Notes under the pieces: generated by a model
Databases searched by the model: none
What the model was told of the DNA's origin: nothing
What the model saw: the letters and a program-made list of their open reading frames with translations, nothing else
Made by a program: the position numbers and the translations under genes
Virus record (IMG/VR): IMGVR_UViG_3300022758_000366
Direction: 5' to 3' (one strand)
Length of the DNA: 5,030 bases
DNA from: a virus
Lineage: Duplodnaviria > Heunggongvirae > Uroviricota > Caudoviricetes
Shown: positions 1 to 5,030 of the stretch, in pieces
Layout of the letters: every line of letters starts with the position of its first letter
Numbering within the stretch: position 1 is the first letter of the stretch

Positions 1-1848
1 CACATGCCGGGACCATTACCGTCTATGAAGGTTCCAGACCAGGTACGCTGAATGATTTTCTCGGTGCCATGACGGAGGATGAGCCCGTCCGGAGGCACTG
101 CGCCGTTTTGAGCTGATGGTGAATGAAGTGGCACGTCATGCCGGAGCGTCATCACAGAGCGCAGCGGCGGCAAAGAAATCCGAAACTGCAGCGGCATCAT
201 CGAAGAACGCGGCGAAAACCTCAGAAACGAATGCAGCTAATAGTGCACAGGCGGCAGCGACCTCACAGACTGCATCAGAAAACTCCGCGACAGCAGCCAA
301 AAATCAGAAACCAACGCGAAAAATAGCGAGACAGCCGCAAAGACGAGCGAAACCAACGCAAAGTCCAGCCAGACGGCAGCGAAAACCAGCGAAACGAATG
401 CCAAAGACAGTGAAGCCACGCAAAAGGTGAGCGAAACAGCGGCTGCGAACTCAGCGAAAGCATCGGCAGCAAGCCAGACGGCAGCTAAAGCAAGCGAAGA
501 TGCAGCCAGAGAGTACGCAAGCCAGGCTGCGGAGCCGTATAAATATGTCTTACAGCCGCTGCCTGATGTGTGGATACCATTTAACGATTCGCTGGATATG
601 ATTACGGGCTTTTCGCCGTCATATAAAAAGATTGTTATTGGTGATGATGAAATAACGATGCCTGGCGACAAGGTTGTTAAGTTTAAACGCGCATCGAAAG
701 CAACCTATATTAATAAATCTGGTGTGCTGACAGTGGCTGCCATTGACGAGCCACGGTTTGAACGTGATGGCCTGCTTATTGAGGGGCAAAGAACGAACTA
801 CATGCTCAATTCGGAAAGCCCTGCCAGTTGGGGGCGATCGTCAAATATGGATGTTCCCGAAACCGGGACGGATAGTTTTGGTTTTACCTATGGAAAGTTT
901 GTCTGTAACGATTCTCTGATTGGGCAAACCTCAGCCATTAATATGGCATCAATTGCTGCAACAAAGTCAGTTGATGTCTCAGGCGATAATAAATACGTGA
1001 CAACCTCATGTCGTTTTAAAACAGAACTGCAGGTAAGGTTGCGTATCCGATTTGATAAATATGACGGTAGCGCAACAACTTTTCTTGGTGATGTGTATAT
1101 TGATACACAAACGCTTGAAATTAATATGACAGGCGGCGCTGCCTCAAGGATTACAGCGAGAGTCAGAAAGGACGAAGTTATCGGATGGATTTTTGCAGAG
1201 GCAACAATTCAGGCAATTGATGGGGAGTTAAAAATAGGTTCTCAGATACAGTATTCTCCTAAGCAGGGCGGGGCAACCGTATCTGGTGACTATATTTATC
1301 TGGCCACCCCACAAGTAGAAAATGGGCCTTGTGTATCATCTTTTATTATATCAGGAACGACGGCGGCGACCCGCGCAAGCGATATAGTCACAGTTCCCAT
1401 TAAGAATAATCTTTATAATCTTCCTTTTACGGTTCTTTGTGAGGTACATAAGAACTGGTATAAAACGCCAATGCAGCACCGCGTGTTTTTGATACCGGCG
1501 GTCATCAAACCGGAGCGGCTATTATTCTTGGCTTCGGTTCTTCAGCAGATTACGACGGATTTCCTTATTGCGATATTGGTGGGTCTAACAGACGGATAAA
1601 CGAAAATGCATCACTTGAAAAAAATGGTTATGGGGATGCGTGTAAAGTCTGATCAGTCTACATGCGCAGTAAGTAACGGGCGTATATCCAGCGAAACAAA
1701 AACCACATGGTCCTGTATTCAGAACACCGCAATTATCCGTATTGGAGGCCAGACTACAGCCGGGTTACGTCATTTATTTGGTCATGTAAGGAATTTCAGA
1801 ATATGGCACAAGGCATTGACTGATGCTCAGGTGGGGGAGTCAATCTAA
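1..1848 (+). CDS. stf: Side tail fibre protein (lambda Stf-like N-proximal part, Ala/Ser/Thr repeat, LamG-like distal domain); 5' end outside window; reading frame broken as sequenced
   Basis: Frame 3 at 3..113 gives HAGTITVYEGSRPGTLNDFLGAMTEDEP. Frame 2 from 83 gives ARPEALRRFELMVNEVARHAGASSQSAAAAKKSETAAASSKNAAKTSETNAA. Both peptides match my recollection of lambda Stf (HAGTITVYEDSQPGTLNDFLCAMTEDDARPEVLRRLELMVEEVAR). Frame 1 from 299 continues KSETNAKNSETAAKTSETNAK to the stop at 1597-1599. A frame-3 stretch 1482..1649 (DTGGHQTGAAIILGFGSSADYDGFPYCDIGG) and frame 1 at 1651..1848 (ending GLRHLFGHVRNFRIWHKALTDAQVGESI) look like one concanavalin/LamG-type domain. The listed ORFs 116..430, 427..1599 and 1606..1848 are pieces of this one gene; the 'M' at 427 is an internal GTG. 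Confidence 0.85.
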
Positions 1849-2156
1849 TGAAAGATTTAACACTCAAATTTCCCGACAGGGCCGACTTTTCGGCCTTTAT
1901 GGAGAGCATTGGCTATTATGATGACGAGTTGATGCAGGATGATATTCTTATTGACGTGATAGGTAACGTGTACAAAGAAACCGGAGAACTGACTGAAGAT
2001 GGCGAACCGGTATGTGTTAAGGAAGACGGATATTTTGTAAACGTGCGCATCATTATGATGCAAAAAAATCGTCAATATTCGATAAATACGCGGTTGTTGT
2101 TGAGCATCAACTTCGTGGCTGGATGTGAGGGAGACAAATGGCTACATCGACAGTAA
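1848..2156 (+). CDS. Hypothetical small acidic protein (102 aa) in the tail-fibre operon
   Basis: The ATG at 1848 overlaps the stf stop as TAATG (translational coupling). The ORF is rich in Asp/Glu and sits between two fibre genes. Its 3' end overlaps the next ORF by 19 nt in another frame. No family recognised. Confidence 0.45.
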   Translation: MKDLTLKFPDRADFSAFMESIGYYDDELMQDDILIDVIGNVYKETGELTEDGEPVCVKEDGYFVNVRIIMMQKNRQYSINTRLLLSINFVAGCEGDKWLHRQ

Positions 2157-2842
2157 TTCCAGGAGATATCACCACGCTAAAGGGAGATGTCAGTAAAACT
2201 AAGGAAGAGATTTCCTCAATTAACGGAAAAGTATCAACGCTTCAGACTGATATGACCAGTGCAAAGCAGGATATCAGCACCAGATACACAAAAACTGAAG
2301 TTGATAATAAGCTGAAAAACAAAGTGGAAGTGAACGATCTGGAAAGTGGTCGTTATGGCGGAGATTTTTATCCACTGACAGGTCGTGAAGCGTTTTATTT
2401 ATGGAATTTGGCCACGACTACAGCGGCGGCAAACCTTTATCTTAATCCTGACCCCGCAATTTCGTCTGTACTGCGGTCAACATCATCTATCCGCTATAAA
2501 CATTCAGTAGAGACAATAGATTCAGAGCACGCCGATCTCATTTTCAGGATGCGCCCTGTGTGGTACAGGTCGCAATGCGAAAATGACAGGCGTGACTGGG
2601 GATTCTATGGATTGATTGCCGAGGAAGTTGGAGAAATTGCCCCTCAGTTTGTTCACTGGCGACCAGCCAACGAAGATGATGCACCGGAAACCATTTCCAG
2701 CAATGGCCTTGTTGCCGAAGGTGTAATGTACGAACGTCTGGTTGTTCCACTGATTCACCATATCCAGAAACTGACTGAAAGAGTTGATGAACTTGAGTCA
2801 GAGTTAAAGTTGTTATCCGTTTCCCGAAGCGATATCGGATAA
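2138..2842 (+). CDS. Tail fibre/spike-type protein with C-terminal intramolecular chaperone auto-processing (peptidase S74-like) domain
   Basis: GAGGGAG lies about 5 nt upstream of the ATG at 2138, and a frame-2 stop sits at 2126-2128 just before it. The N-terminal half is heptad-like (DITTLKGDVSKTKEEISSINGKVSTLQTD). The C-terminal region SSIRYKHSVETIDSEHADLIFRMRPVWYRS...WGFYGLIAEEVGEIAPQFV...GVMYERLVVPLIHHIQKLTERVDELESELKLL follows the consensus of the endosialidase/T5 LtfA chaperone domain (S-x-x-R-x-K ... GxIAQEV..P ... Y..LvPLl..iqeL...LE). Confidence 0.8.
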   Translation: MATSTVIPGDITTLKGDVSKTKEEISSINGKVSTLQTDMTSAKQDISTRYTKTEVDNKLKNKVEVNDLESGRYGGDFYPLTGREAFYLWNLATTTAAANLYLNPDPAISSVLRSTSSIRYKHSVETIDSEHADLIFRMRPVWYRSQCENDRRDWGFYGLIAEEVGEIAPQFVHWRPANEDDAPETISSNGLVAEGVMYERLVVPLIHHIQKLTERVDELESELKLLSVSRSDIG

Positions 2843-2852
2843 AGGAGGAGTA

Positions 2853-3140
2853 ATGGATATAACACCTTTTCTTCATGCGCTTTGTGCTGTGGCTGCGCAG
2901 GTACTGATTGGCCTTTTTACCGGAAACTGGGCTTACGGTGCGATAGCCGGTTGTACGTTCTTCATTGCGCGTGAACACACCCAGGCAGAATATCGCTGGA
3001 TTGAAATGTTTGGGCATGGCAAGAGGATTAACATGCCGTGGTGGGGCGGTTTTGATCCGCGCGTGTGGGATGTGGCAAGCCTGATGGATTTTGCTGTGCC
3101 GGTGGTGGCGTGTCTGCTGATCTGGATGTTGATCCGTTAA
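2853..3140 (+). CDS. Small integral membrane protein (95 aa, about three hydrophobic helices); moron-position gene, possible superinfection-exclusion or lysogenic-conversion function
   Basis: A strong Shine-Dalgarno AGGAGGAG at 2843-2850 precedes the ATG at 2853. Hydrophobic segments are FLHALCAVAAQVLIGLF, WAYGAIAGCTFFIA and VASLMDFAVPVVACLLIWMLI. It lies between the tail-fibre genes and the att site and is followed by a hairpin. No lipobox. Confidence 0.6.
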   Translation: MDITPFLHALCAVAAQVLIGLFTGNWAYGAIAGCTFFIAREHTQAEYRWIEMFGHGKRINMPWWGGFDPRVWDVASLMDFAVPVVACLLIWMLIR

Positions 3141-3155
3141 ATATAAAAAGTAAAA

Positions 3156-3191
3156 AGCCGCAGTAACTTGTCATGATAGGATACTGCGGCT
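3156..3191 (+). terminator. Stem-loop downstream of the membrane-protein gene (possible intrinsic terminator)
   Basis: AGCCGCAGTA (3156-3165) pairs with TACTGCGGCT (3182-3191), a 10-bp stem around a 16-nt loop, 16 nt after the stop at 3138-3140. The following sequence GGTTAACTTTCG is only weakly T-rich. Confidence 0.3.
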
Positions 3192-3485
3192 GGTTAACTT
3201 TCGATAGTGCGAGTATTGAATGATTTCCAGCCGTTACCGATTTTATATAACTGCAGTGGAATTATTCAACACACAGGCAAAACGGAATAAGCTGAGAAAA
3301 AAAGCGTGCTTACCCAATCTGGGGTAAATCACGTCTGAATGACACCTGAAAACAGGTGGTGGCCTCAAGAAGGCTTGGAATATTCTTCTTTAATGTTATG
3401 TAATTTATTGATTTTTCGTGTACGATTTTAAGACATTTATTCCAAGAAAAGTTTTTAACTCTTTGATTTTTCGACTCTGTATCAT

Positions 3486-3547
3486 CGGTCTCGAAAACCG
3501 GAGTGGGGGCAACTCCACCGGGGGTTCAAATCCCCCTCTCTCCGCCA
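3486..3547 (+). other. 3' portion of a tRNA-Ser(CGA) gene (anticodon stem-loop to CCA); not a complete tRNA; att core
   Basis: CGGT-CTCGAAA-ACCGG gives an anticodon loop with anticodon CGA. A long class-II variable arm AGTGGGGGCAACTCCAC follows, then T arm GGGGG-TTCAAAT-CCCCC, acceptor 3' strand TCTCTCC, discriminator G and CCA. Nearly identical to my recollection of E. coli serU from the anticodon stem onward. The upstream sequence TTTTTCGACTCTGTATCAT cannot form the acceptor 5' strand or D arm. Confidence 0.8.
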
Positions 3548-3592
3548 AAATTCAATCACTTACACATCATTAAGTCAGTGACAAAAATCACA

Positions 3593-3628
3593 CTTGGAAT
3601 TACTTGGAATATTTTCTTGGAATATTTT
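3593..3628 (+). repeat. Three tandem direct repeats CTTGGAAT(T/A)TT(TT): putative integrase arm-type binding sites (P' arm)
   Basis: Units at 3593-3602, 3603-3615 and 3616-3628. The same 11-mer recurs at 3374-3384 and inverted at 3435-3446. The repeats overlap the last codons and stop of the int fragment. Confidence 0.55.
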
Positions 3629-3945
3629 CAGGTAACGGGACATCAAGTGTTGGTGAAACTTTAACCTTCCTGTCATAGATTAGCACTTGCCCTTCGGTTT
3701 TGTGACCAGAGAAAAGTTGCTTATCCCGGCTGCTTCCTTCATAGTCTGAAATTCCTTTCGCCTTCAGATCATGAAAGGTGAAGTCGGTTAAAATACCTGA
3801 AATTTTTCCAGCACGATTTCTTGCTTCTACCCACATTTCGTTAAAGCCTTTGTACATATATCGGTTGCCGTATTGATTGCTGATCACATAGGCAGATTTT
3901 GGTAACTGTTTTGCTTTTCGATCGCTGCCTGTAATCGTGGACTCC
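3600..3945 (-). pseudogene. int: Tyrosine integrase (lambda Int family), C-terminal fragment only; N-terminal and core-binding domains absent
   Basis: The C-terminal ~100 residues of the 3600..4199 ORF (AYVISNQYGNRYMYKGFNEMWVEARNRAGKISGILTDFTFHDLKAKGISDYEGSSRDKQLFSGHKTEGQVLIYDRK) align by eye with the lambda Int C-terminus (TFHELRSLSARLYEKQISDKFAQHLLGHKSDTMASQYRDDR), including the His, the GHK His and the Tyr nucleophile. The Arg of H-x-L-R is Lys here. Nothing upstream resembles the first catalytic Arg/Lys region. The 3' end abuts the att site. The boundary at ~3945 is approximate. Confidence 0.7.
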
Positions 3946-4407
3946 ATGCTTTTATCTGTATCTTTATCTGTCGTGACTCGTCGTGACATGTGCGTGACAT
4001 TTCGTGACGCGCCGTGACAATCGCCATTTTGTTCCCGCTTTCTTTCCCTCTCTCGCTGCGCCCTCTTGCGCTCTGCAGGAGATTTTGCGGTTTGCGAAAT
4101 ATTGCCGTTGTCCTCTTTAAGCACCTGGCGTTTTTCCCATCCAGTGATTAAATCACCATCAAGTACCCGCCCCTGCATCGTCTGCAAAATTTGAATCAAT
4201 TACCTCTTCTGTCACGTCGAGCGCACTTGCCAAATCTTCTGTCGTGACATCAATGTGACCTCGCGTGACATTTCGTGACGCGCTCACCAGGAGGTGGATA
4301 TACACTGCCATCACTGTTGCAATTGGCTGCCCTGACACCCTGGCAATTGTTCGCCACTTAGGGTCATTTGGCATGTCATGCCATAATCTGAGCCAGGCGT
4401 TAGCCAT
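3946..4407 (-). CDS. Putative phage replication initiator (YdaU/DUF1376-like N-terminus, from memory), frameshifted and continuous with the int fragment
   Basis: ATG at 4407 with SD GAGGTGAG. The N-terminus MANAWLRLWHDMPNDPKWRTIARVSGQPIATVMAVYIHLL resembles the W..Y....DPK N-terminal motif I recall for DUF1376/YdaU-like initiators. A frame change lies near 4160-4200, after which the sequence continues as QGRVLDGDLITGWEKRQ...ERKRAQRERERK. Iteron-like repeats are embedded in the coding sequence. Sits immediately downstream of a YdaT-like gene, as in the Rac ydaS-ydaT-ydaU-ydaV module. The 3' boundary is approximate. Confidence 0.45.
3972..4279. repeat. Iteron-like CGTGAC direct repeats with ~10-11 bp phasing (putative replication origin inside the initiator gene)
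   Basis: CGTGAC starts at 3972, 3982, 3993, 4003 and 4013, then at 4243, 4254 (TGTGAC), 4264 and 4274, with an inverted GTCACG at 4211-4216. An identical 21-mer GCGTGACATTTCGTGACGCGC occurs at 3992-4012 and 4263-4283. An AT-rich block with TATCTG repeats lies at 3948-3970. Confidence 0.55.
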
Positions 4408-4479
4408 ACTCACCTCTTCTGATACCGAATCTTTTTTACTCACGAGTTGCCGGAAGCGATTCGATATGGCTATTATCAC

Positions 4480-4904
4480 TCAATGCACTGCCACAGCATT
4501 TCCTGCCGGGCCACCACGGTTCATCTGATTGAAACCGGCGATTGCCACTGCGACAAAATCATCGGCGTCTCTCACCAGTCGCTCCCGCGTCTCCACCAGC
4601 TCCCGAAATAAGCTGAACTGTGGCTACGCATTCTGGCCACCAGCAAAGGTGGCATTGCCTTTTCGATCGCTGGTACAACGCCTGAATTTTTTCAACTGCA
4701 TCAGGGGTGTCTTTCTCTACCCAGCGGAAAATTTTCTGGGTATTGCGAGCCAGGGCTTCCGGATGGCTGTCGTCGTACAGTTCAGGAAACGTCATACCCA
4801 ACTCAAAATAAGCCTGGGTTATTCCAGCTGCCGGAACTTTTTTCGCCATCAGGACGCGCCCAGGCATTCATCGCCATGCGGATGTGTTCATGCTTGATTT
4901 TCAT
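4480..4904 (-). CDS. YdaT-like protein (Rac prophage ydaT family, assignment from memory), interrupted by two frame changes as sequenced
   Basis: ATG at 4904-4902 is preceded by AAGGGGGG. The frame gives MKIKHEHIRMAMNAWARPDGEK, then after the T6 run at 4838-4843 a second frame gives VPAAGITQAYFELGMTFPELYDDSHPEALARNTQKIFRWVEKDTPDAVEKIQALYQRS, and a third frame (ELVETRERLVRDADDFVAVAIAGFNQMNRGGPAGNAVAVH) ends at the stop 4480-4482 just before the next gene's RBS. Removing two single-base insertions gives 141 codons, which matches my recollection that YdaT is 140 aa. Confidence 0.45.
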
Positions 4905-5030
4905 GAATCCCCCCTTGGTTAGAAGGCGGATTATGATCAGAACCGGGAATGACAACCGTCGGTATGTGTAACTCATATTTGAGCGCCCCCGGCAGTGACT
5001 GCCTGAATTAGCAACGCCCATTTCCACGGC

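What the first reader, a model, noticed from the sequence alone, without database searches (positions are those of the whole stretch)
83..1848. Mosaic side tail fibre: lambda Stf-like shaft, degenerate 21-nt periodic repeat, LamG-like receptor-binding end
The N-proximal peptide matches lambda Stf. The region 180-480 is a degenerate 7-codon repeat (AGCGAAAC(C/G)AA(C/T)GC(A/C)AAG-like, encoding S-E-T-N/A-A-K) that is prone to slippage. The distal ~400 residues end in a concanavalin/LamG-like motif (GLRHLFGHVRNFRIWHKALTDAQV) quite unlike lambda's Gly/Ser/His-rich distal end. This suggests a swapped host-range determinant, probably glycan-binding.
Basis: partly seen in the sequence, partly recalled or inferred. 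Interest (0 to 1): 0.4.

Follow-up and report, generated by a model that had tools for sequence, protein, structure and literature searches.

The report
Ordinary mosaic prophage side tail fibre
This is the larger part of a common E. coli prophage side tail fibre gene: a lambda-type shaft joined to a widely shared sugar-binding-type (concanavalin/LamG-like) end module, and its apparent breaks are most likely sequencing errors, so it is ordinary.

Summary
The three sequence observations hold. The first ~340 residues of the intact gene resemble lambda Stf. A 21-nt (7-codon) periodicity runs through about nt 158-516. The gene ends in a LamG/concanavalin-like domain.

The stretch 83-1848 is not one ORF. 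The gene starts upstream of the window (211 nt missing) and is read in three frames because of four 1-nt indels. The window is a whole 5030-nt metagenome contig. Its right end differs from an E. coli genome only by six homopolymer indels and no substitutions, so the frameshifts are most likely sequencing errors.

The 7-codon repeat is the heptad register of the coiled-coil shaft. Relatives differ in shaft length by exact multiples of 7 residues.

The distal 430 residues fold with high confidence (pLDDT 91) into two beta-sandwich domains. One is a variable domain related to the capsule-binding RcGTA head-spike fibre. The other is a conserved C-terminal LamG_3 domain.

The module is very common. 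It is joined to at least five different proximal fibre types, with a breakpoint exactly at QPLPDVW (nt 553). A 93-aa ORF follows it in every relative checked, and usually a second small fibre as well. Glycan binding is inferred, not shown.

Verdict: a known, well-populated mosaic tail fibre type of low interest.

The parts
1..1848 (+). Side tail fibre gene (stf). It is 5'-truncated by the contig end (the first 211 nt are missing) and read in three frames because of four 1-nt indels.
   Evidence: Alignment to the intact 2376-nt gene of E. coli AGR6128 (L001:2790-5165, 95.5% nt identity). The conceptual corrected product is 615 aa and collinear with 686-aa relatives.
3..157 (+). End of the lambda-Stf-type N-terminal attachment domain (PF08400) plus linker. 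There is a frame break at about nt 89.
   Evidence: PF08400 matches aa 3-132 of the intact relative with E 5e-67. BLASTP against lambda orf-401. Indel listed.
158..516 (+). Heptad-periodic (21-nt) Ser/Ala/Thr/Lys-rich shaft, consensus S-E/A-T-A/N-A-K-x. It is read here as a trimeric coiled coil. There is a frame break at 299-303 (A5 instead of A6).
   Evidence: Autocorrelation, TRF and heptad register. The lambda Stf residues 102-393 are described as the proximal coiled coil in PMC12617516. Shaft lengths in relatives are 146, 188 and 251 aa, all differing by multiples of 7.
553..681 (+). Conserved start of the distal module (QPLPDVWIPFNDSL...). This is the recombination junction with other shaft types.
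   Evidence: Nucleotide matches to phages with other proximal parts begin at 553-555 (ESCO3, VogelGryff, mEp460_4F5) or 511-514 (tunus, tinuso). The segment is conserved in A1 and A3.
682..1377 (+). Distal domain 1: a beta-sandwich related to the RcGTA head-spike fibre (NF048003). It is CBM4/ConA-like and is the most variable part among alleles.
   Evidence: NCBIfam NF048003 scores 50.5 bits against a cut-off of 36 on the intact relative. PDB 6tb9_F3 Rcc01080 matches at E 1e-7. Entropy profile. CBM_4_9 hits occur in 2 homologues. Fold hits to 1gui and Pa193 gp46.
1381..1836 (+). Distal domain 2: a C-terminal LamG_3 / concanavalin-A-like jelly roll, conserved among alleles. Frame breaks lie at ~1470 (A2 instead of A3) and ~1618 (A7 instead of A6). 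The stop codon is at 1846-1848.
   Evidence: Pfam Laminin_G_3 scores 44.8 bits at aa 622-770 of homologue P0246, which maps to this region. 30 of 46 homologues hit it. The window's own piece scores 19.9 bits. AF2 pLDDT is 84-97 over most of the domain.
1848..2128 (+). Small ORF (93 aa when intact; phrog_1361, unknown function). It is found right after the module in every relative checked. Here it is frameshifted at about nt 2055, so the listed ORF runs to 2156.
   Evidence: Homologous ORFs follow the module in T5-like Lindwurm (E 1e-7) and rV5-like FFH2 (E 8e-19). There is no Pfam, NCBIfam or PDB match.
2138..2842 (+). Second, small fibre protein (234 aa). It has a conserved N-terminal peptide MATSTVIPGDITTLKGDVSK, a coiled-coil stretch and a C-terminal Peptidase_S74 intramolecular chaperone domain. 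It is intact here.
   Evidence: PF13884 scores 26.7 bits against a cut-off of 22. PHROG hits to C-termini of long fibres. The exact protein occurs on 304 contigs. The N-terminal motif is shared with 2G7b and Lindwurm fibres whose remainder differs.
2853..3140 (+). 95-aa hydrophobic ORF (phrog_1443, unknown function). It is the last gene of the prophage arm and is intact.
   Evidence: The exact protein occurs on 328 contigs. The same position is occupied in L001, 2G7b and M15.

Best explanation
The window carries the right end of a lambdoid E. coli prophage. It holds most of a side tail fibre gene (stf), followed by a 93-aa ORF, a 234-aa second fibre with a self-cleaving S74 chaperone domain, and a 95-aa membrane ORF.

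The Stf is a standard mosaic:
- A lambda-type N-terminal collar domain fixes it to the tail.
- A heptad-periodic shaft is read here as a trimeric coiled coil. Its length varies among alleles in whole heptads.
- A two-domain distal module follows. It consists of a variable beta-sandwich related to the capsule-binding head-spike fibre of the Rhodobacter gene transfer agent, and a conserved LamG_3/ConA-like jelly roll.

The most likely function is reversible binding of a surface polysaccharide (O-antigen, capsule or LPS core) as a primary receptor. Specificity would be set mainly by the variable first sandwich.

Shown here: homology, periodicity, fold class, the mosaic distribution and the gene linkage.
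Inferred: glycan binding, trimeric state, and which domain contacts the receptor.

The four frame breaks in stf, and the one in the small ORF, are most likely homopolymer-length sequencing errors of this metagenome contig. The real gene would then be an intact ~686-aa allele of the commonest shaft length.
For: - Synteny and 95.5% nt identity with intact loci (J, lom, stf, small ORF, fibre, 95-aa ORF) in E. coli AGR6128 and phage 2G7b.
- Lambda orf-401 is 59% identical over 341 aa.
- Heptad register and shaft length classes of 146, 188 and 251 aa, with the coiled-coil description of lambda Stf in PMC12617516.
- NF048003 above its cut-off, and the PDB 6tb9 head-spike fibre at E 1e-7. That protein binds capsule polysaccharide according to PMC7296036 and PMC10218006.
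- Laminin_G_3 in 30 of 46 homologues, four of ten scanned individually above the cut-off.
- Variability is concentrated in domain 1.
- The module follows at least five proximal fibre types.
- Sequencing-error reading: the window is one JGI/IMG contig. Window 3951-5030 differs from E. coli GPT24-02 by six 1-nt homopolymer indels and zero substitutions. Four of the five indels in the stf and small-ORF region are length changes in runs of A. The frameshifted products exist on no other contig, while the two neighbouring intact proteins are identical to proteins on more than 300 contigs.
Against: - No binding data exist for this module in E. coli, and I found no paper assigning it a receptor.
- The window's own C-terminal piece is below Pfam's cut-off.
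- The left part of the contig is only 95.5% identical to the nearest complete genome. The indels there therefore cannot be separated from real divergence as cleanly as on the right.
- Two of them are in very short runs (A3 to A2, A2 to A1), and the one at ~89 lies in a diverged stretch.
- One Logan assembly (P0180) shows the same early frameshift in the small ORF. This could mean a real variant.
- The RcGTA fibre is monomeric on its base, so trimeric behaviour of the module is not established.
Confidence: 0.8

Rival explanations
1. The gene is a real pseudogene. It would be a decaying side tail fibre in a cryptic prophage, inactivated by several frameshifts, like lambda PaPa's own stf.
For: - Four frame breaks in 1.85 kb, plus one in the next ORF.
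- The neighbouring region shows a truncated integrase fused to a replisome-organizer gene, suggesting prophage decay.
- A Logan assembly shares the early frameshift of the small ORF.
- Lambda PaPa stf is frameshifted according to PMC12617516.
Against: - The same contig shows six homopolymer indels and no substitutions over 1079 nt against a genome where those genes are intact. That is an error signature, not mutational decay.
- The two downstream genes are perfectly intact.
- Aside from the indels, the conceptual product is collinear with intact relatives and has no stop codons.
Confidence: 0.15
2. The conserved LamG end is not, or not only, the receptor binder. Together with the 93-aa protein it would be the docking platform for the second fibre. 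The side fibre would then be branched, and the S74-matured small fibre would carry a second specificity.
For: - The LamG domain and the first ~70 aa of the module are conserved, while domain 1 and the body of the second fibre vary.
- The second fibre's N-terminal 15-20 aa are conserved in lambdoid, 2G7b and T5-like contexts.
- In 100 of 100 IMG/VR cases a fibre ORF starting with that motif has the module and the small ORF within 3 kb upstream, at module identities from 30 to 100%.
- Branched LtfA/LtfB fibres are established in T5-like DT57C (PMC4728585).
Against: - Gene linkage is not physical attachment.
- The loci are mostly related E. coli prophages, so the 100 cases are not independent.
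- The module occurs without a second fibre directly downstream in about 15 of 80 prophage loci and in rV5-like FFH2.
Confidence: 0.35
3. The distal module is an enzyme, a ConA-like glycanase such as GH16, that degrades the surface polysaccharide rather than a lectin.
Against: - Sequence families hit are Laminin_G_3, CBM_4_9 and the GTA fibre domain, not a GH family.
- No catalytic motif was looked for.
Confidence: 0.05

Closest known systems
Bacteriophage lambda (Ur-lambda) side tail fibre Stf
   Same: N-terminal PF08400 collar domain and heptad-periodic proximal shaft (59% identity over 341 aa). In relatives the gene lies after J and lom.
   Different: The distal part has no similarity to lambda orf-314, the gp37-like, OmpC-binding tip. 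No Tfa gene follows. Instead there is a 93-aa ORF, an S74 fibre and a 95-aa ORF.
RcGTA head-spike fibre Rcc01080 (GhsB), PDB 6tb9 chain F3; NCBIfam NF048003
   Same: Homologous beta-sandwich domain (E 1e-7; NF048003 50.5 bits). That protein binds capsular polysaccharide (PMC7296036, PMC10218006).
   Different: The GTA protein sits as a single chain on the capsid vertices and ends about 40 aa after the aligned region, so it seems to have no room for the C-terminal LamG_3 domain (this was not checked with Pfam). Only its residues 2-10 are resolved in the structure. Here the domain terminates a tail fibre.
Lateral tail fibre proteins of E. coli phages carrying the same module (2G7b, HannyBb, Tritos, tinuso/tunus, VogelGryff Bas25, T5-like Lindwurm, rV5-like FFH2); PHROG 1419/5939
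   Same: The same 430-aa distal module (35-98% aa identity) followed by the same small ORF.
   Different: The proximal parts and virion types differ. None of these has an experimentally assigned receptor for this module in the papers I could read.
Branched lateral tail fibres LtfA/LtfB of T5-like phages DT57C and DT571/2
   Same: Two adjacent fibre genes, and the second fibre carries a C-terminal S74 chaperone domain. Both are thought to bind O-antigens.
   Different: DT57C LtfA itself ends in an S74 domain, not in the ConA-like module. Attachment of the second fibre is not shown for the present cassette.

Membership tests
Lambda-type side tail fibre (Stf; Pfam PF08400 N-terminal domain) | N-terminal 'prophage tail fibre N-terminal' domain | tested here: met
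   PF08400 matches at E 5e-67 on the intact relative. The window retains only the last part of the domain, and it aligns with lambda Stf aa 71-120.
Lambda-type side tail fibre (Stf; Pfam PF08400 N-terminal domain) | Gene located after J and lom in a lambdoid tail module | tested here: inconclusive
   This holds in relatives L001 and 2G7b. The window starts inside the gene, so its own upstream context is not visible.
Lambda-type side tail fibre (Stf; Pfam PF08400 N-terminal domain) | gp37-like distal tip with a downstream Tfa assembly chaperone | tested here: not met
   There is no similarity to lambda orf-314. The downstream ORFs have no Tfa family hit.
Laminin_G_3 / concanavalin A-like lectin-glucanase superfamily (PF13385) | Sequence match to the family profile above the curated cut-off | tested here: inconclusive
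   The window's last 80 aa score 19.9 bits and P0031 scores 16.9 bits, against a cut-off of 27.6. Distant homologues score 30-45 bits at the equivalent position, and 30 of 46 hit at E<=0.01.
Laminin_G_3 / concanavalin A-like lectin-glucanase superfamily (PF13385) | Jelly-roll beta-sandwich fold | tested here: met
Laminin_G_3 / concanavalin A-like lectin-glucanase superfamily (PF13385) | Carbohydrate binding | not testable with these tools
   Inferred only from the fold class and from the capsule-binding GTA homologue.
GTA head-spike fibre domain (NCBIfam NF048003) | Profile match above the curated cut-off | tested here: met
   50.5 bits against a cut-off of 36 at aa 435-635 of the intact relative. 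PDB 6tb9_F3 matches at E 1e-7.
Fibres with C-terminal intramolecular chaperone (Peptidase_S74, PF13884), for the 234-aa downstream ORF | Profile match above the curated cut-off | tested here: met
   26.7 bits against a cut-off of 22 at aa 116-172.
Branched lateral tail fibre (LtfA/LtfB type) | The second fibre is physically attached through the first fibre | not testable with these tools
   Only linkage is available: 100 of 100 motif-bearing fibres lie downstream of the module and the small ORF.

The most novel reading that the evidence does not exclude
The stf distal module, the 93-aa ORF and the S74 fibre form a portable three-gene cassette that builds a branched side fibre. The conserved parts of the ConA-like module, perhaps with the 93-aa protein as adaptor or chaperone, would dock the conserved N-terminal peptide (M-x-T-x-T-x-IP-x-DI-x-x-LK) of an exchangeable second fibre. 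One fibre would then have two receptor specificities. The cassette moves as a unit between lambdoid, T1-like and T5-like phages.
Probability: 0.3. Interest if true: 0.4.

Novelty: already known. Interest (0 to 1): 0.12.

Why it matters
It matters little beyond annotation. It shows that a common E. coli prophage and phage fibre end, so far named only by domain ('prophage tail fiber N-terminal domain-containing' or 'phage head spike fiber domain-containing' protein), is a two-jelly-roll, lectin-type module with a sharply defined fusion point (QPLPDVW).

That junction and the linked 93-aa ORF could be useful when designing chimeric lambda Stf fibres for host-range engineering. It also shows that this contig carries homopolymer errors, so frameshifts on it should not be read as biology.

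Tried and rejected
- A first AF2 run with 90 close homologues (61-98% identical) gave pLDDT 53.6 and about 25 over the whole C-terminal 170 aa. It was replaced by a run with 45 diverse representatives.
- Pfam on the window's own reading-frame pieces gave nothing for 304-1470 and only a sub-threshold LamG hit for the last 80 aa.
- I first read the 315-nt gap relative to L001 as a deletion in the repeat. It is simply the commonest shaft-length allele (146 aa between anchors in 30 of 35 relatives).
- A second homologous-protein search with the rV5-like module returned mostly the same E. coli set and not the rV5-like proteins.
- DT57C LtfA was considered as the same module and rejected, because it ends in an S74 domain.
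- A simple regex for the module upstream of second fibres found it in only 39 of 101 cases. This was a sensitivity artefact, and an HMM found it in 100 of 100.
- The small ORF has no Pfam, NCBIfam or PDB relative.
- ARAGORN finds no whole tRNA in the window.

Full report
**What is in the window**

The ORF list shows no single ORF over 83-1848. It shows three pieces instead: 116-430 in frame 2, 427-1599 in frame 1 and 1606-1848 in frame 1.

Downstream on the same strand lie ORFs at 1848-2156, 2138-2842 and 2853-3140. After about nt 3150 the content changes. There is a tRNA-like 3' fragment, then minus-strand remnants of an integrase, and then an early region of another lambdoid prophage.

Megablast places window 1-3200 at the right end of lambdoid prophages. 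159 complete E. coli genomes have a place that covers at least 80% of those 3200 nt, and the best identity is 95.5%. Temperate phages such as 2G7b, HannyBb and Tritos also match.

In E. coli AGR6128 and in phage 2G7b the locus reads J, lom, a 791-aa 'prophage tail fiber N-terminal domain-containing protein', a 93-aa ORF, a 'tail fiber domain-containing protein' and a 95-100-aa ORF.

**The gene is broken here, and why**

I aligned the window to the intact gene. The results were:
- The first 211 nt are missing, because the contig begins inside the gene.
- There are -1 indels at about 89, at 299 (A6 to A5) and at 1470 (A3 to A2), and a +1 at 1618 (A6 to A7).
- There is a further -1 at about 2055 in the next ORF.
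- An in-frame 315-nt difference lies in the repeat region.

Correcting the four indels gives a 615-aa product without stop codons that is collinear with the relatives.

An exact look-up shows that the window is a complete 5030-nt JGI/IMG contig. The frameshifted products occur on that contig only. The 234-aa and 95-aa proteins are identical to proteins seen on more than 300 contigs.

The decisive control is the right end. Window 3951-5030 differs from E. coli GPT24-02 by six single-base indels, all in homopolymer runs, and by no substitution at all. That is the signature of homopolymer-length miscalling.

I therefore read the stf frame breaks as artefacts, with about 0.8 confidence. A real pseudogene remains possible. 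The left part has real substitutions (95.5% identity), two indels lie in very short runs, and one Logan assembly shares the early frameshift of the small ORF.

**The proximal part and the repeat**

The intact relative is 59% identical to lambda orf-401 over 341 aa and nearly identical over the first 120 aa. It carries PF08400.

The 21-nt periodicity is real:
- Autocorrelation peaks at lags 21, 42 and 63 (0.47, 0.42, 0.42 against 0.34) in nt 120-520 and is absent further on.
- TRF reports periods 21 and 42 at 289-424.
- Written in sevens, the peptide from nt ~158 to ~516 is an uninterrupted array S-E/A-T-A/N-A-K-x. Ser is at position 1 in 17 of 21 heptads, and every SE[T/A] is in the same register.

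The equivalent stretch of Ur-lambda Stf (residues 102-393) is described as the proximal coiled coil of a trimeric fibre (PMC12617516). The repeat is thus the heptad register of the shaft.

Among 35 relatives the distance between two anchors (MVxEVAR and QPLPDVW) is 146, 188 or 251 aa. All differences are multiples of 7. This fits unequal recombination that keeps the register.

The window has the commonest length, 146. The '315-nt deletion' relative to L001 is therefore just an allele difference.

**The distal module**

The last ~430 aa have no similarity to lambda's distal orf-314. At sequence level:
- The intact relative matches NCBIfam NF048003 ('phage head spike fiber domain', 50.5 bits against a cut-off of 36) at aa 435-635.
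- It matches the head-spike fibre Rcc01080 of the Rhodobacter capsulatus gene transfer agent in PDB 6tb9 (E 1e-7).
- That fibre mediates attachment to the capsular polysaccharide (PMC7296036, PMC10218006).

The LamG claim could not be settled on the window's own sequence, which scores 19.9 bits against a cut-off of 27.6. An exhaustive profile search found 6196 representative clusters at E<=1e-3, many of them covering the whole module. Of 46 full-length members, 30 hit Laminin_G_3 at E<=0.01 (best 1.2e-11), and 2 hit CBM_4_9. Of ten distant members scanned one by one, four exceed Pfam's cut-off. In P0246 the domain (aa 622-770, profile positions 11-151) maps onto the last ~150 aa of the module.

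A first structure prediction with a shallow alignment failed for the C-terminal 170 aa. A second prediction, made with the diverse alignment on a homologue 95% identical to the intact relative's module, gave pLDDT 91.1 and pTM 0.88 and is all-beta.

Foldseek against viral models finds the whole two-domain arrangement in many phage proteins annotated as 'Concanavalin A-like lectin/glucanases superfamily'. The jelly-roll/lectin-type fold is therefore supported.

**Which part varies**

In alignments of alleles, the N-terminal ~70 aa of the module and the C-terminal LamG domain are nearly invariant. The central sandwich (about aa 100-260 of the module, nt ~820-1300) carries most of the differences.

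That motif is a structural signature of LamG_3.

**Mosaicism**

The module follows several different proximal parts:
- lambda-type PF08400 N-termini;
- P2-type tail-collar/fibre repeats (PF12571, PF03406);
- T1-like fibres with no Pfam domain (tinuso, tunus);
- Seuratvirus VogelGryff;
- T5-like fibres (Lindwurm);
- a 1479-aa rV5-like fibre (FFH2).

Nucleotide similarity to phages with other shafts begins at nt 511-514 or exactly at 553-555, the first codon of QPLPDVW. Conversely, parts of window 1-3200 match in 4846 of 5426 E. coli genomes, but only 159 have a place covering at least 80% of it. This fits, but does not prove, a lambda-type shaft that usually carries other ends. The second refutation condition ('standard partner of this shaft in all relatives') is therefore not met either.

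This is the well-known modular exchange of fibre ends, and it is exploited deliberately in lambda-Stf chimeras (bioRxiv 10.1101/2025.02.28.640725).

**The linked genes**

The 93-aa ORF directly after the module is homologous in the lambdoid, T5-like (E 1e-7) and rV5-like (E 8e-19) contexts. It has no Pfam, NCBIfam or PDB relative and takes the place of lambda's tfa.

The next ORF is a short fibre with a Peptidase_S74 chaperone domain. It comes as a 234-aa or a ~346-aa allele in 80 IMG/VR prophage loci. Its first 15-20 residues are conserved even where the rest differs, including in T5-like Lindwurm.

I scanned IMG/VR for that N-terminal motif. In 100 of 100 cases with enough upstream sequence, both the module and the small ORF lie within 3 kb upstream, at module identities from 30 to 100%.

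This linkage suggests a cassette and perhaps a branched fibre, by analogy with LtfA/LtfB of DT57C (PMC4728585). But linkage is not attachment, the loci are related, and the module also occurs without a second fibre directly downstream. I give it about 0.3.

**Function**

The best-supported reading is a lectin-type primary-receptor binder for a surface polysaccharide. Three things point that way:
- the fold class;
- the capsule-binding GTA homologue;
- the general role assigned to lateral fibres of these phage groups, which is O-antigen as primary receptor (BASEL paper PMC8594841) or an LPS core sugar for Gifsy-1 Stf (PMC12312913).

No paper I could find assigns a receptor to this module.

**Verdict**

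The sequence features are real. The ORF as described is not intact in this contig, most likely through sequencing error. However, it describes a very common, already annotated fibre type, so interest is low.

Noticed in passing
window 3951-5030 (and the indels at ~89, 299, 1470, 1618, 2055): Against E. coli GPT24-02 the right end of the contig shows six 1-nt homopolymer indels and no substitutions. As a result the YdaT-family and replisome-organizer ORFs are frameshifted too. The contig has systematic homopolymer-length errors.
   Followed up: yes
window 3493-3547 (+) and 3600-3950 (-): There is a tRNA-like 3' fragment (T-arm and acceptor; weak Rfam hits only, no whole tRNA by ARAGORN). Nearly all E. 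coli genomes have a match to nt 3478-3552 covering at least 80% of it, at 95-100% identity. It is followed by the 3' part of an integrase gene on the minus strand. This looks like the att site between two tandem prophages, and the same 'prophage end + integrase' layout is found in E. coli M15. From memory it resembles tRNA-Ser, but this was not verified.
   Followed up: partly
window ~3940-3950: This is the junction where the integrase remnant is fused in frame to the N-terminal part of a phage replisome-organizer gene (ORF 3600-4199, minus strand). No complete E. coli genome carries this junction. It is either a deletion inside the second prophage or a chimeric assembly.
   Followed up: partly
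window 1848-2128; L003:3763-4095; L004:3813-4079: A 93-aa ORF of unknown function (phrog_1361) lies immediately downstream of the module in every relative checked: about 80 IMG/VR prophage loci, a T5-like phage and an rV5-like phage. It is a candidate dedicated chaperone or adaptor replacing Tfa.
   Followed up: partly
window 2138-2200; L002:5456; L004:4090: The N-terminal peptide M-x-T-x-T-x-IP-x-DI-x-x-LK is conserved on second fibres whose bodies differ (234-aa, ~346-aa and 586-aa forms). In IMG/VR it occurs only downstream of the module and the small ORF (100 of 100).
   Followed up: yes
window 2853-3140: A 95-aa hydrophobic ORF (phrog_1443) is conserved as the last gene before the prophage end, and the identical protein occurs on 328 contigs. 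Its function is unknown. It could be a membrane moron such as an exclusion protein.
   Followed up: no
phage records MG065692.1 (Campylobacter phage C13) and some Listeria and Salmonella records: Records labelled as Campylobacter or Listeria phages carry this E. coli-type module at up to 88.7% aa identity. They are probably mislabelled or contaminated records rather than cross-genus transfer.
   Followed up: no
window 3145-3152: There is an 8-nt insertion (AAAAAGTA) relative to E. coli AGR6128 just after the stop codon of the 95-aa ORF, in an A-rich stretch. It looks like a small tandem duplication.
   Followed up: no
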